DNA from: a virus
Virus record (IMG/VR): IMGVR_UViG_3300037502_002729
Location: 32,001-96,000 of that record
DNA length: 64,000 nt
Direction: 5' to 3' (one strand)
Shown: positions 3,829 to 47,774 of the stretch, piece by piece
How the letters are laid out: every line of letters begins with the position of its first letter
How positions within the stretch are numbered: the stretch's first letter is position 1
Notes under the pieces: model-generated
What the model saw: only the letters and a program-made list of their open reading frames with translations
Told to the model about the DNA's origin: nothing
The model's database searches: none
Program-made: the position numbers and the translations under genes

Positions 3829-4053
3829 ATGAAATTTAAAAAACAATTTGGAGAACAAGAAGAAGCACCAGCATCAAATGGTGGAACACCAGCATCAAAA
3901 TGGGAATCAGGAGCAACAAGAGGCAAAGCCAATCCTATTGATAGCAAATCAAAATGGGAATCAGGAGCAACAAGAGGCAAAGCCAATCCTATTGATAGCA
4001 AATCAAAATGGGAATCAGGAGCAACAAGAGGAAAAGCCAATCCTTTAAATTAA
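3829..4053 (+). CDS. Microprotein made of three SKWESGATRGKANP repeats
   Basis: 74-aa ORF, 2 nt after previous stop. Confidence 0.7.
   Translation: MKFKKQFGEQEEAPASNGGTPASKWESGATRGKANPIDSKSKWESGATRGKANPIDSKSKWESGATRGKANPLN
3894..4044 (+). repeat. 54-bp tandem repeat, ~2.8 copies
   Basis: Units start at 3894, 3948, 4002; one synonymous difference in unit 3. Confidence 0.95.
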
Positions 4054-4061
4054 ATAATAAA

Positions 4062-17699: not shown

Positions 17700-17711
17700 A
17701 TTAAAAATACA

Positions 17712-18089: not shown

Positions 18090-18106
18090 TTTAAATTAAA
18101 AATAAA

Positions 18107-18517
18107 ATGGAAAAAGAACAATTAAAAAGAATATTTGAATTCCTTGAAGAGAAGGATAACAAGAGAGTACCCCTAACATGGAAATTAATCAATGATTTTG
18201 ATTCAATAGATGATAAAGATTTATTTTATGATGATAATTTTGATTTATATGGTGCAAGAGTAAAAAGATTACCAGACAATTTTACTGTTAAAGGATATCT
18301 TGATTTAAGATTGACAAAAATAAAAACTCTCCCAGATAATTTAACTGTTGATGGTGATTTATACCTAACGGCTTTAGAAATAGATTCAGTTCCAAAAAAT
18401 CTAAAAGCACACTCAATGTTTGCAAAATACACAACTCTATCTGAAAAATATTCATACAAAGAAATTAAGGATATGATAAAAGAAAAGGGTGGTGAAGTTA
18501 AGTTTTTAACAATTTAA
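18107..18517 (+). CDS. Capped variable-LRR family protein (array A, 3 divergent repeats)
   Basis: MEKEQLKRIFEFLEEK N-cap; LPDNFTVKGYLDL/LPDNLTVDGDLYL; divergent C-cap. Confidence 0.8.
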   Translation: MEKEQLKRIFEFLEEKDNKRVPLTWKLINDFDSIDDKDLFYDDNFDLYGARVKRLPDNFTVKGYLDLRLTKIKTLPDNLTVDGDLYLTALEIDSVPKNLKAHSMFAKYTTLSEKYSYKEIKDMIKEKGGEVKFLTI

Positions 18518-33333: not shown

Positions 33334-34113
33334 ATGCAAATAGGACAATTAAAAAGAATAATTGATTTCTTAGAAAATAAAGAAGGAAAAACACCTAAAG
33401 ACAAAGGTAATTTAAGATGGAAAATGGTATTTAATGAACCATTTACAAAAAAAGAATTAAATATTAAAGATGATTTGTATTTAAATTTTTCAAATATAAG
33501 GTCATTACCAGAAGGATTTAAAGTTTGGGGTGATATAAATTTGGCTAAATCCCATATAGAATCATTACCAGAAGGATTGAAAGTTGGGGGTAGTTTGCGT
33601 TTGGGTTATACAAATATTGCCTCACTCCCAAAAGGTTTGAAAGTTGGGGGTGATTTGGAATTGCTTGAAACAAACATAACTTCACTCCCAGAAGATTTGA
33701 AATTTGGTGGTAATTTGGATTTATCAGGCTCTAAAATAATGTCATTACCAGATAATTTATATATTAGGGGTAATTTAGGTTTAGTTAGATGTGAAAATTT
33801 AACTTCATTACCAAATGGATTAAAAGTTGCTGGTAATTTGAAATTAACCTTTGCAAAAATAAATTCATTACCATATGATTTACAAGTTGGTAATTATTTG
33901 GATTTATCATATACTAACATAACCTCATTACCACAAGGCTTGAAAGTTGGAGGTAGATTCAATGTGTCAAATACAAATATTGAATCCTTACCAAAAGGAT
34001 TGAAAGTTGGTGAAAATTTACTTATTTACAGGTCAAATTTGAAAAAATATACTGATGAAGAATTAAGAGAAATGGTTAAACCAGGTTTTATAAAAGGAGA
34101 AATATTTAGATAA
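33334..34113 (+). CDS. Capped variable-LRR family protein (array B, 9 repeats)
   Basis: LKRIIDFLE N-cap; 9 LP units; KYTDEELREMVKPGFIKGEIFR. Confidence 0.88.
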   Translation: MQIGQLKRIIDFLENKEGKTPKDKGNLRWKMVFNEPFTKKELNIKDDLYLNFSNIRSLPEGFKVWGDINLAKSHIESLPEGLKVGGSLRLGYTNIASLPKGLKVGGDLELLETNITSLPEDLKFGGNLDLSGSKIMSLPDNLYIRGNLGLVRCENLTSLPNGLKVAGNLKLTFAKINSLPYDLQVGNYLDLSYTNITSLPQGLKVGGRFNVSNTNIESLPKGLKVGENLLIYRSNLKKYTDEELREMVKPGFIKGEIFR

Positions 34114-34165
34114 TGAATTAAGAGAAATGGTAAAACCAGATGGTTATGTAGGTAAAATATATTAA
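34112..34165 (+). pseudogene. Orphan C-cap remnant of a deleted LRR gene
   Basis: Reads NELREMVKPDGYVGKIY* with no N-cap or repeats. Confidence 0.75.
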
Positions 34166-34166
34166 A

Positions 34167-34757
34167 ATGGAAAAAGAAACACTAAAAAGAATATTTCAAT
34201 TCCTTGAAGAAAAGGAAGAACATAGTGCACCATTATTATGGAAACATAAAAATAATATGCAAATAACAAAAGAAGAGTTGAATTTTAAAGGTGACTTACA
34301 TTTAGAAAATTCACCAATAACCTCCTTGCCAGATGGGTTGAAAGTTGAGGGTGATTTGATGTTAACCTTTTCAAAAATAGCCTCATTACCAGATGATTTG
34401 CAAGTTGGGGGTGATTTAAATATAATTGGTTGTGAAGCCATAACCTCATTACCAAAAGGATTAAAAGTTGGCAAAGGCATACAATTATATGCAAAAAGAA
34501 TAGTTTCCATTGGGGAAGGATTATTTGTTAATGGAGATTTAAATTTATTTAATAGTCAAATAAAATCATTACCCCAAGGTGTTAAAATTGTGGGGGAGTT
34601 AGTTTTATCCTTTACAAAAATAGAAACATTACCAAAAGGTTTGATAGTTAAAGGTGGTTTGGAGATTTCTGGATCACCATTAGAAAAATATTCAAATAGA
34701 CAATTAAGAAAAATGGTTGAACCTGGATTTATAAATGGTCCAATAGTTAGAGATTAG
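34167..34757 (+). CDS. Capped variable-LRR family protein (array B, 6 repeats)
   Basis: Same caps and repeat. Confidence 0.88.
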   Translation: MEKETLKRIFQFLEEKEEHSAPLLWKHKNNMQITKEELNFKGDLHLENSPITSLPDGLKVEGDLMLTFSKIASLPDDLQVGGDLNIIGCEAITSLPKGLKVGKGIQLYAKRIVSIGEGLFVNGDLNLFNSQIKSLPQGVKIVGELVLSFTKIETLPKGLIVKGGLEISGSPLEKYSNRQLRKMVEPGFINGPIVRD

Positions 34758-34760
34758 ATA

Positions 34761-35234
34761 ATGGAAAAAGAGAAGTTAAAAAGAATATTTGAGTTCCTTG
34801 AAGATAAGGAAAATCTAAACCCCCCATTCTTGTGGAAATGGAAAAATAATATACCATTAATAGAAGAAGATTCAAATGTTAAAGGTGATTTGAATTTAGC
34901 ATTTTCAAAAATAAGATTTTTACCAGAAGGTTTGAAAGTTGCTGGTGATTTGGATTTGCAAGATTCATATGTGAAATCATTACCAAAAGGATTGGAAGTT
35001 GGTGGTGTTTTGAATTTAATAGGTACTTATATGACAACATTACCAGAAGGATTGAAAGTTGGGGGTAGTTTGAATATAGCACATTCAACTATATTATCAC
35101 TACCAAAAGGATTGGAAGTTGGAGGTGATTTATATATTAATGGCACAAAATTAACAAAATATACAAAAAACCAATTAAGAGAAATGGTTAAACCTGGATT
35201 TATAAAAGGAAAAATATATACAGGATATGAATAA
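34761..35234 (+). CDS. Capped variable-LRR family protein (array B, 4 repeats)
   Basis: Same caps and repeat. Confidence 0.88.
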   Translation: MEKEKLKRIFEFLEDKENLNPPFLWKWKNNIPLIEEDSNVKGDLNLAFSKIRFLPEGLKVAGDLDLQDSYVKSLPKGLEVGGVLNLIGTYMTTLPEGLKVGGSLNIAHSTILSLPKGLEVGGDLYINGTKLTKYTKNQLREMVKPGFIKGKIYTGYE

Positions 35235-35886
35235 AGAATCTCTAAAAAGGATATTTGATTTCCTTGAAGCCCAAGAGAATAAAACACCCAATTCCAAAGG
35301 AAACCTTAGATGGAAATTAATTTTCAATGAACCATTAACAGAAGAAGAATTGACTGTTGATGGTGATTTGAATTTAAATAATACACCCTTAACCTCATTA
35401 CCAAAAGGATTAAAAGTTAGGGGTTATTTGAGTTTATCAAACACAAAAATAACCTCATTACCAGAAGATTTGAAAGTTGTTGGTAGTCTATATTTGGATC
35501 ATAGCTTTATAAAATCATTACCAAAGGGATTAAAATTTGGGGGTGATTTTCATTTAGCACATTCTAAAATAACCTCATTACCAGAAGGATTGAAAGTTAA
35601 TCATAGCTTGTATTTAAATGATTGTGAAGATTTAATCTCACTACCAAAAGGATTAAAAGTTGGTGGTTGGTTGAAATTACCAAATACAAAGATAACCTCA
35701 TTACCAGAAGACTTGGAGGTTGGTGGATCTTTGAATTTACGTTTTTGCACAGAATTAACTTCATTACCAAAAGGATTGAAAGTTGGTGGTGATTTGTATA
35801 TTCGTGGAGCGTATTTATCAAAATATACAGATGAAGAATTAAGAGAAATGATTAAACCTGGATTTATAAAAGGAGAAATATATTGA
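35227..35886 (+). CDS. Capped variable-LRR family protein (array B, 7 repeats)
   Basis: Same caps and repeat. Confidence 0.88.
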   Translation: MNKESLKRIFDFLEAQENKTPNSKGNLRWKLIFNEPLTEEELTVDGDLNLNNTPLTSLPKGLKVRGYLSLSNTKITSLPEDLKVVGSLYLDHSFIKSLPKGLKFGGDFHLAHSKITSLPEGLKVNHSLYLNDCEDLISLPKGLKVGGWLKLPNTKITSLPEDLEVGGSLNLRFCTELTSLPKGLKVGGDLYIRGAYLSKYTDEELREMIKPGFIKGEIY

Positions 35887-35888
35887 TA

Positions 35889-36353
35889 ATGGAAAAAGAG
35901 AAGTTAAAAAGAATATTTGAGTTTCTTGAAGAGAAGGGAGAACATAGATTACCACTTAAATGGAAATTAATAAATAATATATCATTAATAGAAGATGATT
36001 TAAATGTTAAAGGTGATTTAGACTTTTCATATTTAGATATAGCCTCATTACCAGAAGGATTGAAAGTTGTAGGTGATTTATCTTTAAGAGGTTCAAAAAT
36101 AATCTCACTACCAGAAGGATTAGAAGTTGGTGGTGATTTGATGTTATATAAATCAGCAATTGAATCATTGCCAAAAGATTTGATAGTTGGGGGTGGTTTG
36201 AGTGTAGCATATTCAAGTATATTCTCACTACCAAAAGGATTGGAAGTTGGAGGTGATTTATATATTCATGGAACAGATTTAACAAAATATACAAAACGAC
36301 AATTAAGAGAAATGATAAAACCAGGTTTTATAAAAGGTAGAATATATGACTAA
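35889..36353 (+). CDS. Capped variable-LRR family protein (array B, 4 repeats)
   Basis: Likely start MEKEK at 35889. Confidence 0.88.
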   Translation: MEKEKLKRIFEFLEEKGEHRLPLKWKLINNISLIEDDLNVKGDLDFSYLDIASLPEGLKVVGDLSLRGSKIISLPEGLEVGGDLMLYKSAIESLPKDLIVGGGLSVAYSSIFSLPKGLEVGGDLYIHGTDLTKYTKRQLREMIKPGFIKGRIYD

Positions 36354-36436
36354 CAGAAATACAAAAACTAAAAATAATATTTGATTTAAACTAAAAAAAT
36401 AACTATATTTACACAAACAAATAAAAAACAATACCT

Positions 36437-36646
36437 ATGGATGAAAAATTCTTTGTTGCAAAACTAACTTTTAATTTACCAGATGAAAACACTGGCAAAT
36501 TAAAAAAAATAAGAGAAGAAAAATTGGTGAAGGGTTATTCTGTAACAGATGTGGAAGCCAAAATAACTGAAAAGTATCAAAATTTCACACAAGAATGGAG
36601 AATAACTGCTGTGTCTGAATCAAAAATTGATGAAGTTTTCCAATAA
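36437..36646 (+). CDS. Small protein resembling DUF4494 family
   Basis: FFVAK.......GK.KK..E..LV...SVT..EA.......I..V.ESKIDEV pattern recalled from Bacteroidota DUF4494. Confidence 0.6.
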   Translation: MDEKFFVAKLTFNLPDENTGKLKKIREEKLVKGYSVTDVEAKITEKYQNFTQEWRITAVSESKIDEVFQ

Positions 36647-36667
36647 AAACTAATTGTTTTTCCTTTT

Positions 36668-36699
36668 AAACCCCTAGCATTTTATGTTGGGGGTTTTTT
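36668..36699 (+). terminator. Intrinsic terminator
   Basis: AAACCCCTAGCA-loop-TGTTGGGGGTTTTTT. Confidence 0.75.
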
Positions 36700-36774
36700 G
36701 TTTTTAAAAAAAAATACTACTAATTAGTATTTTTTTGCATTTGCATATATTTATAATAAAAATAAATAAAAATT

Positions 36775-38370
36775 ATGCAACCTGAAAAAAATTTAGTAGA
36801 AGAAGCACTAATTCAAATGAAACAAATTGAAGATGTGCTTTCAGAAAATGCAAAAGGAATACTTTCTTCAACAATGAAGGAAGAAATCGAAGAATTGGTT
36901 AAGGAATCTTTAAATGAGCAAGAAGATATTGAAGATGATGACACTAATTTAGATATGGAAGATGATGTAGAAGATATGGAGGATGAAATGGATATAGAGG
37001 ATGAAGATGAACTAGATATAGAGGATGAGGATGAAATGGATATGGAAGATGACAATGATGTCATTGACATGAGGGGATCTTCAGAACAAGAATTATTAAA
37101 AGTATTTAAAGCAATGGATGATGAAGATGGTATTATTGTTAGTAAAGATGGTGATGACATTTCTTTAACTGATGATGATAATGAATATTTAATAAGATTG
37201 GGTGAACAAATAAGTGAGTTTGGTGATGAGGATTATGAAGATGAGGATGAAATGGAAATGGATTTTGAAGATGAGGATGAAATGGAAATGGATTTTGAAG
37301 ATGAGGATGAAATGGATATGGGTTTTGAAGATGAAATGGAAATGGATGGTGATTATGATGATGAAATGGGTGAAATGTATGAAGATGACACTCAATCAAC
37401 CATTGATAAAATTTTTGAAAGAACTAATACCAAAAAATCTAATATCATTTATGAAATTGAAGTAGATGAGCAAATTGATTTGGATGATGAAGATGAGTTT
37501 GATATGGAAGATGATATGGATATGGAAAATGATATGGATATGGAAGATGATTTAAACAACATTGAAGTTGATTGTGATAATTTTTCAGTTAGTGATTTCA
37601 TAAAAGAACATGGAATTAAAGACGCTTCAAAAATATTAAAAGTATTAGAAAATAATGGATGCGTAGCAAGTAAAGGTGAAACATCAGAAGATTATAATTA
37701 TTTAGGTGAGGCTAAAAAGGCTTCCAAATTTAAGTATAATATGCCTAAAAATGGTTTTAATGAAAAAATGAAAGAAGGTCCTAAAAAAATGGGGACAGGA
37801 AAAGCTAAGTTTAACTATGATAAATCTGCTGCAAATGTTGATGGTAAGATGAAAAAAGTTAATACTGGTAAAAAACAAGAAACCAAAGAAGCATCAAGAA
37901 CTTATGGTATGGGAAGCAAAGCAGGTAGAGGCCTTAGAAAAGGTATAACACCAAATAGAAACATTACATATGAATCCCTAGAAGCAGAAATTTCTCAATT
38001 AAAACAAAAAAATAATGAATATAAAAAATCATTAAATGTATTTAGGGATAAATTAAATGAAGTTGCTGTGTTTAATGCAAATTTAGCATATGCAACAAGA
38101 TTGTTCACTGAACACTCAACAACTAAAAAAGAAAAAATAAACATTTTGAGACGTTTTGATAATGTTCAATCACTACAAGAATCAAAACAATTGTTTAATG
38201 CAATAAATAGTGAATTGTCAAAAGAAACAAATACGTCTTTAAATGAGTCTGTTAATCGCAAAATTTCAAATGTTGCATCAACAGGTTCATCTGCTAACTT
38301 GATTGAATCCAAGACTTATGAAAATCCTCAATTTTTGAGAATGAAAGATTTAATGGGTAAATTAGGTTAA
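36775..38370 (+). CDS. Prohead scaffold/core protein (gp22-like position)
   Basis: Directly upstream of MCP; very acidic D/E/M repeats, coiled-coil C-term, many L/I-x-E sites. Confidence 0.75.
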   Translation: MQPEKNLVEEALIQMKQIEDVLSENAKGILSSTMKEEIEELVKESLNEQEDIEDDDTNLDMEDDVEDMEDEMDIEDEDELDIEDEDEMDMEDDNDVIDMRGSSEQELLKVFKAMDDEDGIIVSKDGDDISLTDDDNEYLIRLGEQISEFGDEDYEDEDEMEMDFEDEDEMEMDFEDEDEMDMGFEDEMEMDGDYDDEMGEMYEDDTQSTIDKIFERTNTKKSNIIYEIEVDEQIDLDDEDEFDMEDDMDMENDMDMEDDLNNIEVDCDNFSVSDFIKEHGIKDASKILKVLENNGCVASKGETSEDYNYLGEAKKASKFKYNMPKNGFNEKMKEGPKKMGTGKAKFNYDKSAANVDGKMKKVNTGKKQETKEASRTYGMGSKAGRGLRKGITPNRNITYESLEAEISQLKQKNNEYKKSLNVFRDKLNEVAVFNANLAYATRLFTEHSTTKKEKINILRRFDNVQSLQESKQLFNAINSELSKETNTSLNESVNRKISNVASTGSSANLIESKTYENPQFLRMKDLMGKLG

Positions 38371-38397
38371 AAAATAAATAAAAAAATAAATAAAAAA

Positions 38398-40170
38398 ATG
38401 GGAGCATTATTAGAATCAGGTCTTGTTGGTAATATTGGGTTAAAACACCTAAAAGTTATCAAAGAAGATACTATTAACAAATGGAATAAATTAGGATTCC
38501 TTGAAGGTCTTAAAGGCCACCTAAAAGAGAATGTTGCACAGTTGTATGAAAACCAAGCATCATATCTTATCAATGAAGCTGCTAGTACATCTGATACTGG
38601 TGCATTTGAAACAGTTGTTTTCCCAATTGTGAGGAGAGTATTCTCTAAATTATTGGCTAATGATATTGTTTCTGTACAAGCAATGAACTTACCTATTGGT
38701 AAATTGTTCTTCTTTGTGCCACAAATTCAAGAATATAATGGTACAGAGCATTGGGCACCTTATGGTTCACCAAATGCTGTAGATGGTCAAACTCCAAGTA
38801 CTGGTTATACATCAACAGCAAAAAATCTATATGATAGATTTTATGAGGGTACTGAGCCAGGTTTAAATCCAGAAGGACTTTATGATTATTCAAGAGGTCA
38901 ATATAGTGAAATAACTGCAAGTGCAACAACTGTTATATGGAGTGATGGTCAATTAATCCCAGGTGAATATTCTGGTAATAATAGAAAAGTTTTATTAGTT
39001 ATGTCAGGTTTTTCTAGTGATGGTGCTGGAAAATTGATTGGACCCGAAGGTCAACCAATGGATACAGAAACATTCTTAGCTAGTTTACAAGTGTTAGGTG
39101 TTACAGGAAATGCAACAACATCAGCTAATACATCAAATCCATATTTATTTAGAGTTGTTACTCAAAAATATGGAAAAGGTATTGTTCAATATGGTGCAGA
39201 TAATACATTAGCTTTCCCTGGTTCTAAAACAGCTGGTGGAACATTCTATGATGTTTGTGATTCTGTTGGTCATATATACTTAGAAGTTGATTTACAAGTA
39301 CCAGTTGAAATTGGTCAAACTTCACTTGATGGTTATACTGGTTCAACAATTACATCAACAACTGCTGCAGGTAATGCTTTTGTTACAAAATATAAAATTT
39401 ATAAGAATTTAGAATTTGAAGATAAAATTGGTGAGGTTTCTTTTGATTTACAATCTGTTACAGTTTCTGTGACTGAAAGAAAATTAAGAGCTCAATGGTC
39501 ACCAGAAATGGCACAAGATGTTGCTGCATTCCACAATATTGATGCTGAAGCAGAATTAACTGCTTTATTGTCAGAGCAAATTGCAGCTGAAGTTGATAGA
39601 GAAATTCTTCGTGATCTTAGAAAAGGTGCTGCTTGGAACTTACGTTGGGATTATAATGGATGGAGAAAACTTGGTTCTGCTGCAATTCCTTATACTCAAA
39701 AAGATTGGAATCAAACATTGATTACAACAATCAACCAAGTATCAGCACAAATTCACAAATCAACACTAAGAGGTGGTGCAAACTGGATTGTTGTTTCTTC
39801 TGAAGTAAGTGCAGTTTTTGATGATTTGGAATACTTCCACGTATCAAATGCTTCACCAGAGCAAGACCAATACAATATGGGTATTGAAAGAGTTGGTACA
39901 TTAGCTGGTCGTTACCAAGTGTATCGTGATCCTTACTTCCCAGCAAACCAAATTTTGATGGGACACAAAGGAACATCTTTACTTGACACAGGTTATATCT
40001 ATGCGCCTTATGTACCTCTACAATTAACTCCAACAATGTATAACCCATTCAACTTTACACCAATTAAAGGTATAATGACAAGATATGCTAAAAAGATGGT
40101 TAATAACCGTTTCTATGGCCGTATCACAGTTGATGGTGTTAGAACATTTGACTTAAGAGAGTTAAGATAA
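38398..40170 (+). CDS. Major capsid protein (T4 gp23-like)
   Basis: FPIVRRVF, VSVQAM..P.G, RKLRAQWSPEMAQD..A.H.IDAEAEL, YAPYVPL, F.P.KGIMTRY; probable maturation site LINE/A. Confidence 0.96.
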   Translation: MGALLESGLVGNIGLKHLKVIKEDTINKWNKLGFLEGLKGHLKENVAQLYENQASYLINEAASTSDTGAFETVVFPIVRRVFSKLLANDIVSVQAMNLPIGKLFFFVPQIQEYNGTEHWAPYGSPNAVDGQTPSTGYTSTAKNLYDRFYEGTEPGLNPEGLYDYSRGQYSEITASATTVIWSDGQLIPGEYSGNNRKVLLVMSGFSSDGAGKLIGPEGQPMDTETFLASLQVLGVTGNATTSANTSNPYLFRVVTQKYGKGIVQYGADNTLAFPGSKTAGGTFYDVCDSVGHIYLEVDLQVPVEIGQTSLDGYTGSTITSTTAAGNAFVTKYKIYKNLEFEDKIGEVSFDLQSVTVSVTERKLRAQWSPEMAQDVAAFHNIDAEAELTALLSEQIAAEVDREILRDLRKGAAWNLRWDYNGWRKLGSAAIPYTQKDWNQTLITTINQVSAQIHKSTLRGGANWIVVSSEVSAVFDDLEYFHVSNASPEQDQYNMGIERVGTLAGRYQVYRDPYFPANQILMGHKGTSLLDTGYIYAPYVPLQLTPTMYNPFNFTPIKGIMTRYAKKMVNNRFYGRITVDGVRTFDLRELR

Positions 40171-40221
40171 TTAAAATGTCCACTTTTTTTACTAAAAAAC
40201 TGGACATTTTAAAGGATAATA

Positions 40222-40254
40222 GAAAGGGTTGCAAGGTTTTGCAACCCTTTTTTT
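40222..40254 (+). terminator. Intrinsic terminator after MCP
   Basis: AAAGGGTTGCAA-loop-TTGCAACCCTTTTTTT; a second hairpin at ~40174-40210. Confidence 0.85.
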
Positions 40255-40337
40255 AATATCTTTTCCCATAGAGGTGAATATAGTTTATATATTATAGAAA
40301 AAAACATAATAGTTTTATATTTATAAATAAAAAAATT

Positions 40338-40691
40338 ATGGAAAACAAGCCATCATTTATAAATGAGGATCTTGCTGTTTGGTTTGGGACAAAGAAGAAA
40401 CCAAAAGGTAGCAACCAACCCAAAGGACCCTGGGTTAATATATGTAGAAAAGATTCAAGTGGTAAACATCCGCCTTGTGGAAGGGAGTCAGATAGTAAAG
40501 GGGGTTATCCAAAATGTAGAGCAGCAGGTGTTGCTGGAAAGATGAGTGATGCAGAAAAAAAAGCTGCCTGTGCCAAAAAGAGGAGTGCTGAAAAAAAGAA
40601 CCCAAAATCTGGAACAGGCAACAAACCAACAATGGTTTCAAATGAAAGTATTGAAAGAATTATTTTAAAAGTTCTAAAAGATTTTCAGTAG
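40338..40691 (+). CDS. Small basic Cys-containing late protein
   Basis: INE-DLAVWF...WVNIC...PCGR...YPKC...KKR; TATTTATA 40318-40325. Confidence 0.7.
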   Translation: MENKPSFINEDLAVWFGTKKKPKGSNQPKGPWVNICRKDSSGKHPPCGRESDSKGGYPKCRAAGVAGKMSDAEKKAACAKKRSAEKKNPKSGTGNKPTMVSNESIERIILKVLKDFQ

Positions 40692-41559
40692 AACTATTAA
40701 TAGTTTCTAAAATACATGAATTTGCAAAAGAACAATTTGCTATCTGTTCATTTTCATATTTTCCATTTTTTTTGAGTTTTCTTTTTGTAATATCTCTCAT
40801 TGACATAGAGTAAATACAAGTAGTTGATTCAATCCCATTTTCAATTTCTGTCAATAAGAATGAAATATAAGTGTATTGTTTTGGGCAAACATATATCTCA
40901 ATATTTATTTCACTATTCAATGGAATACTTGAGAAGTCTAATTTTTTAAAAACAAATTCATTGCCATCTCTATATACAAAAATTTTTGTTTTACTAATTT
41001 CATATTTAGATTCAAGTATAGTCACTTTTTCATTAAAAGCATATCCTATCTCTAATAATAGGATTATATGTATCATTTGTTGAACAGTAATGGTTTTTAC
41101 AACTTTTGGAGTACTATATGTCTTAAATATTTGTGTTAAATTTTTAGTTAAAATGCAATTATATAAATCTTGAAAAATAGGATCAATCTTGTTTAAAAAG
41201 TAAAAAAGGGGGTATTTTATATTTGAATCCATAGTTTTAAAAAGAGTAGCATTATCATAAATGTTTGGTAAATGCATATCACTTCTTGCATTAAGGTAAT
41301 TTTTTGCCTCAATAATATATATTATATTATTTAGAATAGAAATATAATCACCTCTTATTGCAGATGCTATACGACTATTAGGCATTATGGTTTTTGTAGT
41401 ATTTTTAAATTGTTTGTGGAAAGATTTTCTTATCTTAGTAATACCATCTTTTGAATCAAAATTAGTGATTTCATCATCACTTAATCCATTAGTATTCTGC
41501 AAGTAATTTAAGATTTCTTTTTGGTTAACTTTCCAAGGAATATTTTTACTTTTACCCAT
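40660..41559 (-). CDS. Hypothetical protein, possible PD-(D/E)XK nuclease
   Basis: GDYI...IIEAKNY motif; start MGKSK at 41559 below a Bacteroidota-type promoter. Confidence 0.5.
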   Translation of the reverse strand: MGKSKNIPWKVNQKEILNYLQNTNGLSDDEITNFDSKDGITKIRKSFHKQFKNTTKTIMPNSRIASAIRGDYISILNNIIYIIEAKNYLNARSDMHLPNIYDNATLFKTMDSNIKYPLFYFLNKIDPIFQDLYNCILTKNLTQIFKTYSTPKVVKTITVQQMIHIILLLEIGYAFNEKVTILESKYEISKTKIFVYRDGNEFVFKKLDFSSIPLNSEINIEIYVCPKQYTYISFLLTEIENGIESTTCIYSMSMRDITKRKLKKNGKYENEQIANCSFANSCILETINSSTENLLELLK

Positions 41560-41577
41560 TTTATTTTCTTGTTTATG

Positions 41578-41608
41578 CAAAGATATAAAAAAAATAATTA
41601 AATACAAA
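41578..41608 (-). promoter_or_regulatory. Bacteroidota sigmaA-type promoter
   Basis: TTTG-N19-TATCTTTG. Confidence 0.7.
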
Positions 41609-41644
41609 AAAAATATCACTTATTTAAGTGATATTTTTTAAACA

Positions 41645-42022
41645 TTAAAAACTTTCAACCTTCACTAAGAAATTTTCTTTTAGGTAATTTGATAAATCAT
41701 AGAATATATCAAATTTTGATGCCATCTTGTCATCAAAAGCCTTCACTATTTCCAAATGCGTGTTTTGGTGGGAAATAAAAAATTTAAACACCTCATATTC
41801 ATATATGATACAAACATCTCTATCAATAATATTGATATAAATGTTATCCTCCTCAAGATATACCAATCTTTCTGGGGATTTTGATGAATATGCTAATTTT
41901 GCATCAGGATGATTAATTAGTTTAAGACATATATTCTTGCAACGTATGTCATCTTCTGATGGATCAACCATTGCTAAAATATTTTGCTTAAATGAAGCAA
42001 TCAAATCATTTAATAGTTTCAT
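41645..42022 (-). CDS. Hypothetical protein
   Basis: 125 aa with own promoter and downstream hairpin (~41607-41639). Confidence 0.7.
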   Translation of the reverse strand: MKLLNDLIASFKQNILAMVDPSEDDIRCKNICLKLINHPDAKLAYSSKSPERLVYLEEDNIYINIIDRDVCIIYEYEVFKFFISHQNTHLEIVKAFDDKMASKFDIFYDLSNYLKENFLVKVESF

Positions 42023-42043
42023 AGTTTTTATTTTGTTTCACTG

Positions 42044-42074
42044 CAAATATACAACAAAATTTCATAAAAACAAA
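42044..42074 (-). promoter_or_regulatory. Bacteroidota sigmaA-type promoter
   Basis: TTTG-N19-TATATTTG. Confidence 0.7.
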
Positions 42075-42497
42075 TCACTCTTTCTTCCACTTTCCACCTA
42101 ATTGCTTATAACGTTTTGCTGCTGCACCATTGCAATATGCACTAGGACATACCTTATATCTTGATTTTGCCCAACTTAAACATTGACTCCATAATTTTGG
42201 ATTTTTGGGTTTGTTCTTTTTGGCTTTAGCTTCTGTTAAATTTTGGTCATCATTCTCATTGAATTCATTCATCATAAAATCAAATACTTGATCCATATTT
42301 TCTTTTGCAACACTAATGTGGTCATCAGCCCAATCATGCCCATTTTTTATTAACTCATTCACCTCATCTGGTTGCAGTTCAAGCAATAATTCACATTGTC
42401 TTTTTATTTGTTTTAAATTACCAAAGAACATATAGTTTTCAGTTGCTTGTTCCTTTATGGCAGTTTCAATAATTCTTTTAATTCTTGGATTAATCAT
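42075..42497 (-). CDS. Hypothetical late protein with basic C-terminal domain
   Basis: LTEA-K...NPKLW....AKS.YKV.PSAY.NG...KRYK.LGG.W; TATTTATA 42518-42511. Confidence 0.7.
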   Translation of the reverse strand: MINPRIKRIIETAIKEQATENYMFFGNLKQIKRQCELLLELQPDEVNELIKNGHDWADDHISVAKENMDQVFDFMMNEFNENDDQNLTEAKAKKNKPKNPKLWSQCLSWAKSRYKVCPSAYCNGAAAKRYKQLGGKWKKE

Positions 42498-42653
42498 ATT
42501 AATTTTTATTTATAAATATCATTAAGGTCTATTTTGATTAAGGCTTCCATATTTTGATTTTAAGATACTTTTTGTTTTAGCCTATTACTATGTCATATTT
42601 ATTAAAATCTATTGTCTTGGTTAAATTGTATGTGGTTAAATGGGATTTAATGA

Positions 42654-43193
42654 CTATATCTTAATTATTCCTTTTATATATCCAGGTTTAACCATTTCTC
42701 TTAATTCATCATTAGAAAAATTGCCTAAACTATCCTCAGTACTTATATTTAAGTAGCGATTAACTATTAACCCTTTTGGTAACTTATTTATTGGTGTATT
42801 CATTATTCCTAACCAACCATCAATGACTAGCCCTTCTGGTAGTGAAGTTATTTTTGTATTATGTAAATACAAAGAATTACCAATTTTAATATCATGTGGT
42901 ATGTTTTTTATGTTGGAGTGGGATAAATACAAACTACCACCAACTTTCAACCCTTTTGGCAATTCTTCTATTTTTGAAAATCTAGTCTGCATATCACCTT
43001 TAACTTCCAAATTATCTGGCAATGATTTTAATGTTGAATCTGTTAAATCCAAATCACCATTAACAACTAAATCATCTTTTGTTAGGGGTTCATTAAATTT
43101 TAATTTCCAAATAAAGTTATCTCTATCTTTATGTTTTTTCTTTTCTTTCTTCTCAAAAAAATCAAATATTTTTCTTATTGTTTCTTTTTCCAT
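42654..43193 (-). CDS. Capped variable-LRR family protein (array C, 5 repeats)
   Basis: Same caps and repeat. Confidence 0.88.
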   Translation of the reverse strand: MEKETIRKIFDFFEKKEKKKHKDRDNFIWKLKFNEPLTKDDLVVNGDLDLTDSTLKSLPDNLEVKGDMQTRFSKIEELPKGLKVGGSLYLSHSNIKNIPHDIKIGNSLYLHNTKITSLPEGLVIDGWLGIMNTPINKLPKGLIVNRYLNISTEDSLGNFSNDELREMVKPGYIKGIIKI

Positions 43194-43813
43194 TATCTAA
43201 ATATTTTACCTTCAAATTTTCCCCCATTTAAATTTTTATTACTTCTTATTTCTTCATCTGTATATTTTTTGGCAAGGGGGGTGTTTCTTATGCCTATATC
43301 TCGTCTAACATATAAATTATTTGGAAAATCTTCTATTTGTGTAGAAATAATACCAAAATTACCTCCAACGTATAAATTATCTGGAAGTTCTTTTATTTTT
43401 ACACAATCAGATAAATTTAAACTACCCCCAACATATAATTCACTTGGGAGTTTTATTAATTCTTCACAAGAATCCAAATCTAAATAATCATCCACATATA
43501 TTTTATCTGGGAGTTTTGTTATATTTAAACCTGCTAAATCTGCCCAACCTTCAACACGTAAATCACCTGAAAGTTCTTTTAAATTTTTACAATCTTTCAC
43601 CATCAAATAACCCTTAACATTAAATTTATTTGGTAATTTTTTTATAGGCATTTCGTATAAATACAAATTATCATTATGTGTAAATTGAACATCATCAGGA
43701 TAATTTTCTAGGTCATACATTAGGTTAAGTTTTCTTAACTTAATATAGGAGGGGACTTTATTTTCTTTCTTTTTAATAAAATCAAGTATCTTTTTTATTG
43801 TTTTTATTTCCAT
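43193..43813 (-). CDS. Capped variable-LRR family protein (array C, 6 divergent repeats)
   Basis: Likely start MEIKTIKKILDF at 43813; TPLAKKYTDEEIR C-cap. Confidence 0.82.
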   Translation of the reverse strand: MEIKTIKKILDFIKKKENKVPSYIKLRKLNLMYDLENYPDDVQFTHNDNLYLYEMPIKKLPNKFNVKGYLMVKDCKNLKELSGDLRVEGWADLAGLNITKLPDKIYVDDYLDLDSCEELIKLPSELYVGGSLNLSDCVKIKELPDNLYVGGNFGIISTQIEDFPNNLYVRRDIGIRNTPLAKKYTDEEIRSNKNLNGGKFEGKIFR

Positions 43814-43817
43814 CTTC

Positions 43818-44396
43818 TTAATATATGCTCCCATTTATGTATCCAGGATGAATCATTTTTGCAATTTCATCATCATCAAGTTTATATATGGATGTTCCAT
43901 AAACATGTAAATCTCCACCAACTATTAAGCCTTTTGGTAAGGACTTTAAGTTTTTACAATTTCTTAAATTTAAATCACCACCAACTTCTAATCCTTCTGG
44001 CAATGATTCTATTTTTGAATGTTTTAAAACTAAATTATAATCAACTTTCAAACCTTTTGGTAATTTAGTTATTTCTGTACCACCTAAATCCAAACCTTCA
44101 ACTTCCAAATCCTCTGGTAATGATTTTATTCTTGAACTAGCTAAAAATAAACCCCTAACTTTCAATCCTTTTGGCAATGAAGTTATGCTTGATTCATAAA
44201 GGTATAAATTACCATCAACATTTAACCCTTCTGGTAATGAGGTAATTTCTATTCTTTCTAAATCCAAATCACCTTTAACATTTAATTCTTCTTTGGTTAA
44301 TGGGATATTATTTAATAATTTCCATTTAAATGGTGCATTATGCCCTTCCTTCTCTTCAAGGAACTCAAATATTCTTTTTAATTGTTCTTTTTCCAT
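43818..44396 (-). CDS. Capped variable-LRR family protein (array C, 6 repeats)
   Basis: Same caps and repeat. Confidence 0.88.
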   Translation of the reverse strand: MEKEQLKRIFEFLEEKEGHNAPFKWKLLNNIPLTKEELNVKGDLDLERIEITSLPEGLNVDGNLYLYESSITSLPKGLKVRGLFLASSRIKSLPEDLEVEGLDLGGTEITKLPKGLKVDYNLVLKHSKIESLPEGLEVGGDLNLRNCKNLKSLPKGLIVGGDLHVYGTSIYKLDDDEIAKMIHPGYINGSIY

Positions 44397-44992
44397 TATC
44401 TTATTATGTCTCCTTTTATAAATCCAGGTTTAATCATTTCTCTTAATTCATTATTTGTGTATTCTAATAATGCTGTATTTTTAATAATCAACTCACCTTT
44501 AACTTCTAACCCTTTTGGTAATGAAGTTATTTTTGAACGCTGTAAATGCAAAATATCACCAACTTTCAACCCTTCTGGTAATGATTCTATATCTGCAAAA
44601 ACTAAACTTAAACTACCACCAACTTTCAATCCTTTTGGTAGTGAAGTTATTTTTGTATTGTGTAAATACAAAGAATTACCAATTTTAATATCATCTGGTA
44701 TGTTTTTTATCCTAGAGTAGGATAAATCCAAAGTACCACCAACTTTCAAGCCTTTTGGTAATTCTTCTATTCTTGAAAATCTAGTAAGCATACCACCTTT
44801 AACTTCCAAATTATCTGGCAATGATTTTAATGTTGAATCTGTTAAATCCAAATCACCATTAACAACTAAATCTTCTTTGGTTAGGGGTTCATTAAACTTT
44901 AATTTCCAAATAAAGTTATCTCTATCTTTATGTTTTTTCCCTTCCTTTTCTTCAAGGAATTCAAATATTCTTTTTAATTGTTCTTTTTCCAT
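44396..44992 (-). CDS. Capped variable-LRR family protein (array C, 6 repeats)
   Basis: Same caps and repeat. Confidence 0.88.
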   Translation of the reverse strand: MEKEQLKRIFEFLEEKEGKKHKDRDNFIWKLKFNEPLTKEDLVVNGDLDLTDSTLKSLPDNLEVKGGMLTRFSRIEELPKGLKVGGTLDLSYSRIKNIPDDIKIGNSLYLHNTKITSLPKGLKVGGSLSLVFADIESLPEGLKVGDILHLQRSKITSLPKGLEVKGELIIKNTALLEYTNNELREMIKPGFIKGDIIR

Positions 44993-45399
44993 TATTTAAA
45001 TATTTTTCCTTTTATAAAGCCAGGTTTAATCATTTCCTTTATTTCATCCTTTGAGTAATGTATTAATGGAGTTCTATTAATAATAATATCCCCCCCAACT
45101 TTCAATCCTTTTGGTAAATCTTTGATGAATTTACAACTATCCAAAAACAAATCACCCTTAACTTCCAATCCATCTGGCAATGAGGATATAGTTGAAAATA
45201 GCAAATCCAAATCACCCCCAACTTTCAACCCTTCTGGTAATGAGTTTATTTCAATAGACCTTAAATCTAAATCACCTTTAACATTTAAATCTTCTTTGGT
45301 TAATGGGATATTATTAAATAATTTCCATTTAAATGGTGCATTATGCCCTTCCTTTTCTTCAAGAAACTCAAATATTCTTTTTAATGCTTCTTTTTCCAT
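44992..45399 (-). CDS. Capped variable-LRR family protein (array C, 3 repeats)
   Basis: Same caps and repeat. Confidence 0.88.
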   Translation of the reverse strand: MEKEALKRIFEFLEEKEGHNAPFKWKLFNNIPLTKEDLNVKGDLDLRSIEINSLPEGLKVGGDLDLLFSTISSLPDGLEVKGDLFLDSCKFIKDLPKGLKVGGDIIINRTPLIHYSKDEIKEMIKPGFIKGKIFK

Positions 45400-45863
45400 T
45401 ATCTAAATATTATTCCTTTTATAAACCCAGGTTCAATCATTTCCCTTAATTCTTCATCTGTGTATTCTAATAATGCTGTCTTTTTAATATATAAATTAGC
45501 ACCAACTTCCAATCCTTTTGGTAAGGAGGTTATTTTTGTATTTATTAAATCCAACCAAAACCTAACTTTCAAGCCTTTTGGTAATGAGGTTATTTTTGTA
45601 TTATATAAATTCAAATAACCACCAACTTTCAAATCTTCTGGTAATGAGGTTATATTTGTATCTCTTAAACTCAAAAACCCACTAACTTTCAATCCTTCTG
45701 GTAATGATGTTATATTTGTTTTATTTAAAAATAAACTACCTTTAATATTTAAATCACCTTCTGTTAATGGTATATTATTAAATAATTTCCATTTAAATGG
45801 TGCTCTATTCTCTCCTTTCTCTTCAAGGAATTCAAATATCCTTTTTAGTTTTTCTTTTTCCAT
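45399..45863 (-). CDS. Capped variable-LRR family protein (array C, 4 repeats)
   Basis: Same caps and repeat. Confidence 0.88.
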   Translation of the reverse strand: MEKEKLKRIFEFLEEKGENRAPFKWKLFNNIPLTEGDLNIKGSLFLNKTNITSLPEGLKVSGFLSLRDTNITSLPEDLKVGGYLNLYNTKITSLPKGLKVRFWLDLINTKITSLPKGLEVGANLYIKKTALLEYTDEELREMIEPGFIKGIIFR

Positions 45864-46261
45864 TATCTTATTATGTCTCCTTTTATAAATCCAGGCTTTA
45901 TCATATCTCTTAATTCTTCATTAGTATAATCTTCTAATGGAGTATTTCTAATAAATAAACTACGCCCAACTTTCAAACCTTTTGGTAATAAGGTTATTTT
46001 TGTATTATATAGACTTAAATCATCACCAACTTTCAATCCTTCTGGCAGTGAAGTTATACTTGAGTTGTCTAAATACAAAGTACCCTTAACTTCCAATCCA
46101 TTTGGCAATGATGTTATATTTGATAATTGCAAATCACCATTAATTTCCAAATCTTCTTTTCTTAATGGCATATTAGTTTTCAACTTCCACACAAGTGGTT
46201 GGTTAAGATTTTCCTTTGTTTTAAGGAACTCAAATATTCTTTTTATTTTTTCTTTTTCCAT
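45863..46261 (-). CDS. Capped variable-LRR family protein (array C, 3 repeats)
   Basis: Same caps and repeat. Confidence 0.88.
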   Translation of the reverse strand: MEKEKIKRIFEFLKTKENLNQPLVWKLKTNMPLRKEDLEINGDLQLSNITSLPNGLEVKGTLYLDNSSITSLPEGLKVGDDLSLYNTKITLLPKGLKVGRSLFIRNTPLEDYTNEELRDMIKPGFIKGDIIR

Positions 46262-46965
46262 TATCTAAATATTTCTCCTTCTATATATCCAGGTTTTACC
46301 ATTTCTCTTAATTGGTCATCTGTGTATTTTCTTAATATGCTTTTTTCTATATATAATTTTCCATAAACTTTCAAACCTTTTGGCAATGAGGTTATATTTG
46401 TATCTCTTAAATACAAACCTCCACCAACTTCCAATCCATTTGGCAATGAGGTTATATTTGTATGTGATAAAGTCAAATAACCACCAACTTTCAATCCTTC
46501 TGGCAATGAGGTTATTTTTGAACTGGTTAAACCCAAATTACCATTAACTTTCAATCTTTCTGGCAATGAGGTTATTTTTGTATTCTCTATATGCAAAGAA
46601 CCCCCAACTTTCAAACCTTTTGGTAGTGAGTTTATATCCGCATATGATAAATTCAAAGAACCACCAACTTGTAAATCATCTGGTAATGAGATTATTTTTG
46701 AAAAGGTTAACATCAAATCACCATCAACTTTTAAACCTTCTGGTAATGAGGTTATGTTTGAATTAGTTAAATATAAATCACCACCAACTTTCAAACCTTC
46801 TGGCAATGAGGTTATATTTGCGTGTCTTAAACTCAAATCACCTTTAACATTTAAATCTTCTTTTGCTATTGGCATAGCCAATTTAATCTTAACTGGTAAT
46901 GGTATAATGTGTTCTCCTTTCTCTTCAAGAAACTCAAATATTCTTTTTAGTTTTTCTTTTTCCAT
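46261..46965 (-). CDS. Capped variable-LRR family protein (array C, 8 repeats)
   Basis: Exact 60-bp period visible (tggcaatgaggttat at 46381, 46441, 46501, 46561). Confidence 0.9.
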   Translation of the reverse strand: MEKEKLKRIFEFLEEKGEHIIPLPVKIKLAMPIAKEDLNVKGDLSLRHANITSLPEGLKVGGDLYLTNSNITSLPEGLKVDGDLMLTFSKIISLPDDLQVGGSLNLSYADINSLPKGLKVGGSLHIENTKITSLPERLKVNGNLGLTSSKITSLPEGLKVGGYLTLSHTNITSLPNGLEVGGGLYLRDTNITSLPKGLKVYGKLYIEKSILRKYTDDQLREMVKPGYIEGEIFR

Positions 46966-47369
46966 TATCTATATATTTCTCCTTTTATAAATCCAGGTTT
47001 AATCATTTCCCTTAATTCTTCAGCTGAATATTTTATTAATGCACTATCATCAATATATAAATTTCTTCCAACTTCCAATCCTTTTGGTAAAAACTTTATA
47101 TCTGTTTCAATTAAATCCAAATGACCACCAACTTTTAGTCCTTCTGGTAAATACTCTATAAATGTATAGGCTAAATCAAGCCAACCACTAACTTGCAATC
47201 CTTCTGGTAAGGTTTCAACTCCTGTATTACTTAAATCCAAATCACCTTTAACATTTAAATCACCTTCTGTTAATGGTATATCATTTTTATACTTCCATAA
47301 GAATGGTGCATTATGTTCTTCCTTCTCTTCAAGGAATTCAAATATTCTTTTTAGTGCTTCTTTTTCCAT
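46965..47369 (-). CDS. Capped variable-LRR family protein (array C, 3 repeats)
   Basis: Same caps and repeat. Confidence 0.88.
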   Translation of the reverse strand: MEKEALKRIFEFLEEKEEHNAPFLWKYKNDIPLTEGDLNVKGDLDLSNTGVETLPEGLQVSGWLDLAYTFIEYLPEGLKVGGHLDLIETDIKFLPKGLEVGRNLYIDDSALIKYSAEELREMIKPGFIKGEIYR

Positions 47370-47372
47370 TAT

Positions 47373-47774
47373 CTAATATATATTTCCATTTATATAACCA
47401 GGTTTTATCATTTCTCTTAATTCATCATTTAAAAGTTTTGTTAATTCTGTTCCTCCAAGAAATAAATCACCCTCTACTTTTAAACCTTTTGGTAGTGAGG
47501 TTATTTTTGTATTAGCCAAAGACAAATCACCACCAACTTTCAAGTCTTTTGGTAATGAGGTTATATTTGTATTTCTTAAAATCAAAAAACCACTAACTTT
47601 CAACCCTTCTGGTAATGAAGTTATATTTGATTGAAACAAATTCAAATTGCCTTTAACATTTAAATCATCTTCTGTTAATGGTATATTATTTTTAAATTTC
47701 CATAAAAATGGTGTTCTATGCTCACCCTCCTCTTCAAGGAACTCAAATATTCTTTTTAATGTTTCTTTTTCCAT
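47373..47774 (-). CDS. Capped variable-LRR family protein (array C, 3 repeats)
   Basis: Same caps; TAATG-coupled to the upstream structural gene. Confidence 0.88.
   Translation of the reverse strand: MEKETLKRIFEFLEEEGEHRTPFLWKFKNNIPLTEDDLNVKGNLNLFQSNITSLPEGLKVSGFLILRNTNITSLPKDLKVGGDLSLANTKITSLPKGLKVEGDLFLGGTELTKLLNDELREMIKPGYINGNIY

What the first reader, a model, noticed from the sequence alone, without database searches (positions are those of the whole stretch)
33841..46722. Mosaic sharing of LRR modules between non-adjacent paralogs implies shuffling by recombination
Seen: (i) the module GDLMLTFSKI.SLPDDLQVGG is near-identical in DNA at ~34350-34412 (+, array B) and ~46662-46722 (-, array C), with a relative at ~33841-33891, each flanked by different modules. 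(ii) 42838-43140 and 44637-44939 are near-identical over ~300 bp, yet the two genes have different extreme N-termini and different C-terminal halves. (iii) 44396 shares IK.TALLEYT with 45399 but its GFIKGDIIR end with 45863. (iv) KVSGFL.LR.TNITSLP.DLKVGG is in both 45399 and 47373. (v) 33334 and 35227 share KTP..KGNLRWK..FNEP. (vi) 34761 and 35889 share the last module and cap. Inference: the constant framework DNA (cattaccagaagg/aaagttggtggt) provides crossover points, so new combinations arise by homologous recombination or gene conversion; no dedicated recombinase is visible in the window.
Basis: partly seen in the sequence, partly recalled or inferred. Interest (0 to 1): 0.78.

Follow-up and report, generated by a model that had tools for sequence, protein, structure and literature searches.

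The report
Recombining LRR gene family in jumbo phage
A freshwater T4-like jumbo phage spends about a tenth of its DNA on dozens of small leucine-rich-repeat proteins whose caps, repeat modules and whole genes are demonstrably swapped by ordinary homologous recombination; the mechanism is well known from other gene families, but a family of this size has not, as far as I could find, been described in a phage.

Summary
All six observations hold at the stated coordinates. The window belongs to a 107-kb fragment of a T4-like phage. The fragment carries 23 paralogs in four arrays, 18 of them in the window. Each paralog is an N-cap, 2-9 twenty-residue LRR modules and a C-cap.

Mosaicism is real:
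- N-cap and C-cap distances are uncorrelated.
- Identity between paralogs changes abruptly, for example C7/C10 at 94% over 304 nt and then about 50%.
- Single modules are shared out of register. One is 55 nt exact between arrays 49 kb apart on opposite strands.

The decisive evidence is a collinear sister genome (270 kb, 41 paralogs).
- Twelve of our genes have 94-99% orthologs there. Their few differences cluster in patches that match a neighbouring paralog exactly, which marks gene conversion.
- Ten genes have no ortholog there, and gene order differs.

Neither genome has a reverse transcriptase or a site-specific recombinase. The sister encodes a UvsX-like recombinase.

Classical tree-incongruence (AU) and PHI tests were not significant, so the deep history is unresolved.

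Function is unknown; a diversified binder repertoire is my inference. The scan noted similar LRR paralog pairs in another genome, which I did not test.

The parts
17295..18517 (+). Array A: three paralogs (A1-A3). A1 and A2 have acidic C-terminal tails.
   Evidence: A3 has a 96.8% ortholog in the sister genome; A1 and A2 have none.
33334..36353 (+). Array B: five paralogs (B1-B5), lying between the prohead protease gene and the scaffold and major capsid genes.
   Evidence: B2 (95%) and B5 (99.4%) have orthologs in the sister genome; B1, B3 and B4 have none.
42654..47774 (-). Array C: ten paralogs (C1-C10). Eight of the ten gene junctions overlap by 1 nt. The array lies directly downstream of a 501-aa gene.
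   Evidence: The sister genome has C3, C7, C4, C8, C9, C10 in that order and lacks C1, C2, C5 and C6.
34350..34412 (+). B2 module 2, the shared atypical module.
   Evidence: 59/63 nt identical to 46660-46722. The same pair is found in the sister genome at 56-57/60, so the event is old and independently assembled.
46660..46722 (-). C3 module 3, partner of B2 module 2, one module out of register.
33832..33951 (+). B1 modules 7-8. Module 7 is a relative of the shared module. Module 8 (33896-33950) carries a 55-nt exact match to module 1 of paralog Z2, which lies outside the window, 49 kb away on the opposite strand.
   Evidence: The match is absent from the sister genome, so it is recent.
42837..43140 (-). 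C10 nt 54-357: a tract 94% identical to C7, ending inside module 4 at the SLP motif.
   Evidence: In the sister genome nt 170-305 of the two orthologs are identical at 136/136, against 123/136 here.
44636..44939 (-). C7 nt 54-357, partner of the C10 tract. C7 is a three-part mosaic: a C8-like first 54 nt, a C10-like body, and a C5/C4-like tail.
   Evidence: The full-length C7 ortholog in the sister genome is 98.1% identical, so C7 is not an assembly chimera.
45262..45399 (-). C6 nt 1-138, 95% identical to C8 nt 1-138 (44259-44396), followed by ordinary divergence.
   Evidence: Breakpoint test p=0.0002. C8 nt 60-100 matches C6 at 40/41 but differs at 6 sites from its own ortholog.
35057..35209 (+). 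B3 last module plus C-cap, 89% identical to B5 36185-36337.
   Evidence: clade support 97/94.

Best explanation
The arrays encode a phage-specific family of small capped LRR solenoid proteins. General homologous recombination keeps remodelling this family at three scales.
(1) Short-tract gene conversion of about 40-300 nt between paralogs, within and between arrays. It starts and ends in the better-conserved stretches: the 5' end of the N-cap, the SLPxGLKVGG framework and the 3' end of the C-cap.
(2) Unequal crossing-over at the conserved C-cap/N-cap gene junctions. This adds, deletes or reorders whole genes and changes module number.
(3) Exchange of whole cassettes between co-infecting related phages.

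Shown here: the mosaic tracts, the donors of several conversion patches, the turnover of gene content and order between near-identical genomes, the LRR fold, and the absence of any programmed diversification enzyme.

Inferred: that a phage UvsX-type recombination pathway does the work. Also inferred: that the outcome is a diversified repertoire of binding surfaces acting on variable host targets. The most variable residues are module positions 1, 3, 5, 6 and 8, which in LRR structures form the concave ligand-binding face.
For: Family and segmentation: 23 paralogs in four arrays, 12.0 kb or 11% of the 107-kb fragment.

Decoupled ends: the Mantel correlation between N-cap and C-cap distances is r=-0.20, p=0.91.

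Tracts with abrupt ends:
- C7/C10: 304 nt at 94%.
- C6/C8: 138 nt at 95%.
- Z2/Z3: 134 nt at 94%.
- Z3/Z4: 56 nt exact.
- Z2 module 1 / B1 module 8: 55 nt exact.
- B2 module 2 / C3 module 3: 68 nt at 94%.

Null models: 26 module pairs share at least 51/60 nt against 1.0 expected. The rate-corrected breakpoint test passes Bonferroni for 4 of 105 pairs.

Sister genome (270 kb, collinear):
- 12 orthologs at 94-99% identity and 10 genes without an ortholog.
- Mismatches between orthologs are clustered.
- Donors are identified. Z3 nt 545-588 equals Z2 at 44/44 but has 11 mismatches to its ortholog, against 5 in the other 544 nt (p=4e-10). The sister's C10 ortholog equals its C7 ortholog at 136/136. 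C8 nt 60-100 equals C6 at 40/41.

A 131-bp exact direct repeat spans two successive gene junctions.

Relatives differ in repertoire: one holds C3, C6, C8 and C10; another holds only C10.

Enzymes: no reverse transcriptase and no tyrosine or serine recombinase. A UvsX-like gene is present in the sister genome.

Fold: the AlphaFold2 model has pLDDT 92, and the top structural and sequence matches are LRR domains.

Variable positions are listed.
Against: AU tests on the 150-190-column cap alignments do not reject the conflicting clades (p 0.10-0.39).

A PHI-type test is not significant (p 0.13-0.56). Four-gamete incompatibility is about 0.5-0.6 at every distance, so the old history is saturated and cannot be told from a star radiation with homoplasy.

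Many of the significant triplets involve the fast-evolving ends of A1 and B4 and could reflect rate shifts rather than exchange.

The conversion patches were chosen after looking at the data, so their p-values are approximate.

The UvsX-like gene was found only in the sister genome; our fragment is about 35% of a genome.

Median exact runs in the framework are only 9 nt, which is short for RecA-type exchange.

pN/pS between orthologs is 0.36-0.61, so there is no sign of positive selection on point changes.

Function is untested.
Confidence: 0.88

Rival explanations
1. Whole-gene and internal-module duplication followed by independent divergence. Under this reading the shared motifs reflect selection for the LRR consensus, with no exchange between copies.
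For: Tree-topology (AU) and PHI tests do not demonstrate recombination. Much of the similarity between modules is consensus-driven, with a mean of 61%.
Against: This cannot produce abrupt drops from 94-100% to about 50% identity that include synonymous sites. It cannot produce exact 55- and 131-nt matches between otherwise diverged genes. It cannot produce ortholog differences confined to patches identical to a neighbouring paralog. Column-shuffle and rate-corrected nulls are exceeded.
Confidence: 0.03
2. The mosaics are chimeras made by short-read metagenome assembly across repeats.
For: The record is a metagenome assembly. Exact repeats of 131 and 79 nt exist. Logan contigs of four runs break at the repeats and cannot phase the array.
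Against: An independently assembled genome from another sample carries full-length C7, C10, C3, B2, Z3 and others at 94-99% identity, with the same mosaic junctions and the same B2/C3 shared module. Most mosaic boundaries have exact overlaps of 56 nt or less, and no assembler switch is needed to explain them. Unique pieces of C2, C3, C4, C6, C8 and C9 recur with 0-7 differences in runs from four studies.
Confidence: 0.04
3. Programmed diversification, by one of three routes: a diversity-generating retroelement, a shufflon or invertase system, or lamprey-VLR-like copy-choice assembly of an incomplete gene from silent cassettes.
For: The capped-LRR architecture with variable concave-face residues resembles VLRs.
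Against: Neither genome has a reverse transcriptase or a tyrosine or serine recombinase. Every paralog is a complete ORF with its own start, both caps and a stop, so there are no silent partial cassettes. Differences between orthologs are not biased towards adenines or confined to one variable repeat.
Confidence: 0.03
4. Most new combinations come from arrays of co-infecting related phages, a shared pan-repertoire, rather than from shuffling among the copies of one genome. This overlaps with the best explanation and differs only in the main donor pool.
For: Ten of 23 genes have no ortholog in a genome whose other genes are 95-99% identical. Backbone identity is itself patchy, with the major capsid gene at 83% and neighbouring small ORFs at 98%. 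C6 is absent from the sister genome but present at 94% in another relative. Array C words are held in 20 runs from 11 studies with only 47-93% of words.
Against: Several patches have exact donors inside the same genome, and the 131-bp junction repeat is intragenomic.
Confidence: 0.4

Closest known systems
Plant NLR / R-gene clusters (for example RPP8, PMC6771003) and other tandem LRR gene clusters that evolve by gene conversion and unequal crossing-over
   Same: Tandem LRR paralogs, patchy sequence exchange between paralogs, copy-number and content differences between near-identical haplotypes, and variation concentrated on the exposed xLxLxx residues.
   Different: Here the genes sit in a virus. 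They are tiny (125-259 aa) and consist of LRR plus caps only, with no NB-ARC or signalling domain. Exchange also crosses arrays on opposite strands 49 kb apart.
Short 20-residue bacterial LRRs of type III effectors (SspH1, SlrP, IpaH; PDB 4nkg, 4puf, 8gtk)
   Same: The same 20-residue period with an LP motif. These are the best natural structural and sequence matches, with SspH1 at 32% identity over about 120 residues.
   Different: There is no NEL ubiquitin-ligase domain and no secretion signal. The N- and C-caps are different. This family is found almost only in viruses.
Lamprey and hagfish variable lymphocyte receptors, and repebodies
   Same: A capped LRR scaffold with a variable number of modules and a hypervariable concave face. 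They appear among the fold and sequence hits.
   Different: VLRs are assembled somatically from silent cassettes into one incomplete germline gene. Here all copies are complete germline genes, and diversification happens on an evolutionary timescale.
Hyperplastic regions of T4-like phages and mosaic tail-fibre genes; paralogous repeat-protein families of giant viruses (PMC5753266). The T4-like part of this comparison rests on my own knowledge.
   Same: A recombination-proficient large virus with strain-variable accessory gene blocks and expanded repeat-protein families.
   Different: I found no description of a capped LRR family of this size (41 per genome) in a phage. Four literature searches returned nothing relevant.

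Membership tests
Leucine-rich repeat fold (LRR superfamily) | A tandem 20-30-residue unit with an LxxLxLxx(N/T/C) core that forms a curved solenoid with a parallel beta-sheet on the concave side. | tested here: met
   The 20-aa unit is xLxLxx(S/T)xIxSLPxGLKVGG, counted 110 times in 23 genes. The AlphaFold2 model has pLDDT 92 with regular strands in each repeat. Foldseek and PDB profile hits are almost all LRR domains.
Pfam LRR families (LRR_1, LRR_4, LRR_8, LRR_14) | Score above the curated gathering threshold. | tested here: not met
   All hits score 14-18 bits against cut-offs of 20-40. The family is a divergent LRR that Pfam LRR models do not capture.
Pfam DUF5649 (repeats of unknown function) | Score above the gathering threshold of 25 bits. 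| tested here: inconclusive
   C3 scores 28.5 bits. The six other paralogs tested have no hit.
NEL-type LRR effectors (IpaH/SspH/SlrP) | An LRR domain joined to a C-terminal NEL E3-ligase domain. | tested here: not met
   The proteins end about 30 residues after the last repeat in a family-specific C-cap. Only the LRR parts of these effectors align.
Diversity-generating retroelement | A reverse transcriptase with a template/variable repeat pair. | tested here: not met
   No RVT_1 match in the 107-kb fragment or in the 90%-complete sister genome.
Shufflon or invertase-type programmed rearrangement | A tyrosine or serine site-specific recombinase with inverted recombination sites. | tested here: not met
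   No Phage_integrase or Resolvase match in either genome.
VLR-type somatic assembly | One incomplete expressed gene plus many silent partial cassettes. | tested here: not met
   All 23 (and 41) copies are complete ORFs with a start, both caps and a stop, except one N-cap-only fusion in the sister genome. No cytidine deaminase was looked for.
Multigene family evolving by gene conversion and unequal crossing-over | Patchy identity tracts with identifiable paralogous donors, junction repeats, and differences in copy number and order between close haplotypes. | tested here: met

The most novel reading that the evidence does not exclude
The arrays are a germline-encoded, recombination-shuffled library of LRR binding proteins that the phage uses against variable host targets such as defence proteins. 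That would make it a viral counterpart of the NLR and VLR repertoires of cellular immunity. New specificities would arise by swapping modules and cassettes within the genome and across the phage population, not by point mutation.
Probability: 0.3. Interest if true: 0.85.

Novelty: new variant of a known kind. Interest (0 to 1): 0.6.

Why it matters
Phages are known to diversify receptor-binding proteins through retroelements and tail-fibre mosaics. A family of 23-41 capped LRR binders per genome, reshuffled between strains that are otherwise 95-99% identical, would be a different and very large investment, about 8-11% of the genome, in variable protein recognition.

If the targets are host defence or surface components, this gives a tractable system for studying a virus-side recognition repertoire. 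It would also be a natural source of small modular LRR scaffolds.

The recombination mechanism itself is ordinary.

Tried and rejected
- AU tests of conflicting clades on the N-end and C-end alignments: not significant, p 0.10-0.39, because the alignments are too short.
- A PHI-type four-gamete test on five alignments: not significant, because incompatibility is saturated (one search had a coding bug and is void).
- Triplet Fisher tests: 34 pass Bonferroni, but many are driven by the fast-evolving A1 C-end and B4 N-end. I rely only on the C7/C10/C5 triplet.
- Laying Logan contigs of four runs: the contigs break at the repeats. The listed joints have sides of about 30 nt and probably come from other paralogs or strains. 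They give no verdict on chimeric molecules or on array phasing.
- Shares of 0.47-0.73 of the array's words in other runs were not interpreted further.
- Capsid-targeting leader idea for the N-cap, with prohead-protease cleavage after (L/I)xE: the candidate Glu positions 11 and 15 are not conserved among paralogs, so it was not pursued.
- Point-mutational positive selection: pN/pS is 0.36-0.61 in all partitions.
- Cluster names of NCBI-sourced homologs: only 'hypothetical protein'.
- Four literature searches found no paper on a phage LRR multigene family.
Full report
**Context.** The window is bases 32001-96000 of a 107,342-bp IMG/VR virus record that CheckV estimates at 35% complete. GC content is about 28%. 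The portal, large terminase, prohead protease region and a gp23-type major capsid protein identify a T4-like myovirus. The capsid protein is closest to those of uncultured huge phages and of Microcystis and Flavobacterium phages. The size of its relatives (270-326 kb) makes it a jumbo phage.

**Anatomy of the family.**
- A motif scan found 18 paralogs in the window. Array A is at 17295-18517 (+, 3 genes), array B at 33334-36353 (+, 5 genes) and array C at 42654-47774 (-, 10 genes).
- A fourth array of five genes lies upstream of the window, at genome 14392-17084 (-).
- The 23 genes total 12.0 kb, or 11% of the fragment.
- In array C, eight of the ten gene junctions overlap by one base. Arrays B and C are embedded in head and tail gene blocks.

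**Fold and relatives.**
- Pfam LRR models hit only below threshold. DUF5649 reaches 28.5 bits for one member.
- An AlphaFold2 model of the 154-aa paralog C5 (45399-45863), built on 35 homologs, has mean pLDDT 92 and regular strands in each repeat.
- Foldseek returns almost only LRR domains. These include a flagellar-motor LRR protein, SspH1 (32% identity), IpaH, Leptospira LRR proteins, VLRs and repebodies.
- A profile search of PDB sequences gives the same picture.
- The most variable module positions are 1, 3, 5, 6 and 8, with entropy 3.0-3.6 bits. Positions 2, 4, 9, 12, 13, 16 and 18 are nearly fixed. From general knowledge of LRR structures, the variable positions are the exposed residues of the concave beta-sheet and the ascending loop.
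- The family is large, with 1451 metagenomic proteins at E<=1e-5, all unnamed. Its nearest ESM-Atlas clusters are 85-100% viral. Only five loci turned up in 185,579 prokaryotic genomes.
- A homolog in the temperate Edwardsiella phage Edno5 lies in the early region next to exo and RecT.

**Checking the six observations.** All six hold; details are in the observation check. The background matters for judging them. Whole paralogs are 70-77% identical in DNA. Modules average 61%, with the 99th percentile at 82%. Against this background the following stand out:
- The C7/C10 tract (304 nt, 94%).
- The C6/C8 tract (138 nt, 95%).
- The B2/C3 shared module (68 nt, 94%, one module out of register).
- A 55-nt exact match between module 8 of B1 (33896-33950) and module 1 of Z2. 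These lie in different arrays on opposite strands, 49 kb apart.

Shuffling codon columns among 95 modules gives 1.0 pair with at least 51/60 identical bases. The data give 26 such pairs.

**Is it recombination? The negative results first.**
- Trees of the N-end and C-end support different pairs. The N-end supports C7+C10 and the B1/B4/C7/C10 group. The C-end supports Z2+Z3 and B3+B5.
- AU tests nevertheless do not reject the conflicting clades, p 0.10-0.39.
- A PHI-type test is not significant, because about half of all site pairs fail the four-gamete test at any distance.
- The deep history of the family therefore cannot be resolved.

**The positive evidence.**
- N-cap and C-cap pairwise distances are uncorrelated, Mantel r=-0.20.
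- The triplet C7 = C10 (5') + C5 (3') gives p=3e-9.
- A breakpoint likelihood test scales each site by the family-wide mismatch rate. It finds 4 of 105 pairs significant after Bonferroni correction: C6/C8 at nt 138, Z3/Z4 at nt 54, Z1/B3 at nt 189 and B2/C2 at nt 87. It finds 29 of 105 at p<0.05.

**The sister genome.**
- The gene next to array C is 93% identical in protein to one in IMGVR_UViG_3300036770_004143 (270,075 bp, 90% complete).
- The two genomes are collinear across all four arrays. The sister carries 41 paralogs in about nine arrays.
- Twelve of our 23 genes have full-length orthologs there at 94-99% DNA identity. One (Z2) is orthologous only in its 3' part. Ten have no ortholog: Z1, A1, A2, B1, B3, B4, C1, C2, C5 and C6.
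- Gene order differs. The sister has C3, C7, C4, C8, C9, C10, and the orthologs of Z2 and Z3 are swapped.
- The 190 differences between orthologs are strongly clustered, and several clusters have exact donors:
  - The last 44 nt of Z3 are identical to its neighbour Z2. They differ from the Z3 ortholog at 11 sites, against 5 sites in the other 544 nt (p=4e-10).
  - In the sister genome, nt 170-305 of the C10 and C7 orthologs are identical at 136/136. Here they match at 123/136.
  - C8 nt 60-100 matches C6 at 40/41 and differs from its own ortholog at 6 sites.
- These are gene-conversion events that post-date the split of two very close genomes.
- A 131-bp exact direct repeat covers the Z2|Z3 and Z3|Z4 junctions. 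It had been noted earlier as e1-5991896. It shows that the C-cap/N-cap junction is a recombination handle for whole genes.
- More distant relatives show further turnover. One array holds C3, C6, C8, C10 and a chimera with a C5-like 3' part. Another shares only C10.
- 75 of 80 relatives whose neighbour gene is 55-61% identical have no family member at this position at all.
- The backbone is itself mosaic. The capsid gene is 83% identical, the scaffold gene 89%, and adjacent small ORFs 95-98.6%. Exchange between co-infecting phages is therefore evidently frequent.

**Assembly artefact?** This is unlikely.
- The sister genome, from another sample, independently contains the mosaic genes and the B2/C3 shared module.
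- Apart from the 131- and 79-nt repeats, exact matches between paralogs are 56 nt or shorter.
- Unique segments of six array C genes recur in contigs of runs from four studies with 0-7 differences.
- Those contigs cannot phase the array, so long reads remain the decisive check.

**Mechanism.**
- Neither genome has a reverse transcriptase or a tyrosine or serine recombinase. All copies are complete genes. Retroelement, shufflon and VLR-type mechanisms are therefore not supported.
- The sister genome encodes a UvsX-like recombinase (phrog_97, E about 1e-15 to 1e-16). Our fragment does not include it.
- Homology between paralogs is highest in the first 54 nt of the N-cap (82% identity, median exact run 14 nt). 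It is 73% (median run 9 nt) in the framework half of modules and 54% (median run 5 nt) in the variable half.
It also shows that caps and junctions matter at least as much. Breakpoints cannot be placed more precisely than between flanking mismatches.

**Function.**
- Function is untested. pN/pS between orthologs is 0.36-0.61 everywhere. Diversity is therefore generated by exchange rather than by selected point changes.
- I infer a diversified binder repertoire aimed at variable host molecules, with about 30% confidence.
- Co-transcription with late structural genes is compatible with a virion-associated or late cytoplasmic role. The early-region position of the Edno5 homolog hints at an intracellular role.

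**Verdict.** The recombination mechanism is ordinary. I found no description of such a phage LRR repertoire with strain-level turnover in four literature searches. The scan also noted LRR paralog pairs in another genome (e1-5825625, e1-5825630), which I did not examine.

Noticed in passing
window 38398-40170 and 40660-41619: The major capsid gene is only 82.8% identical in DNA to the sister genome, while flanking small ORFs are 95-98.6% identical. The 319-aa ORF at 40660-41619 is replaced in the sister genome, where only its first 63 nt match. Mosaicism therefore extends across the genome beyond the LRR arrays.
   Followed up: partly
sister genome G001:C1:205033-205371 (locus L173): A 112-aa protein carries the family's N-cap fused to an unrelated C-terminal part with no LRR modules. 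The N-cap may therefore be a portable module with its own role.
   Followed up: no
window 17295-18089: A1 and A2 carry strongly acidic tails after the C-cap, as does one sister-genome paralog at 233339-233809.
   Followed up: no
window 36775-38370: The putative scaffold protein between array B and the capsid gene is extremely acidic and contains internal tandem repeats of a DEDEMEMDFE-like unit. It is 89% identical to the sister genome, with 8 gaps.
   Followed up: no
window 3894-4031: An 84-nt exact direct repeat offset by 54 nt, at genome 35894/35948, indicates a tandem repeat just before or at the start of the 350-aa ORF at 4008-5060.
   Followed up: no
window 19368-21380: A 670-aa ATP-dependent (Lon-like) protease, phrog_4871 at E=4e-230, lies next to array A.
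   Followed up: no
L181 (Edwardsiella phage Edno5, 26924-27667 of MH898687.1): A 247-aa homolog of the family sits in the early region of a temperate phage, between the repressor genes and exo/RecT.
   Followed up: partly
genome 104400-107300 (outside the window, 3' end of the record): There are many exact direct repeats of 45-77 nt at spacings of 24-171 nt, a separate tandem-repeat region unrelated to the LRR arrays.
   Followed up: no
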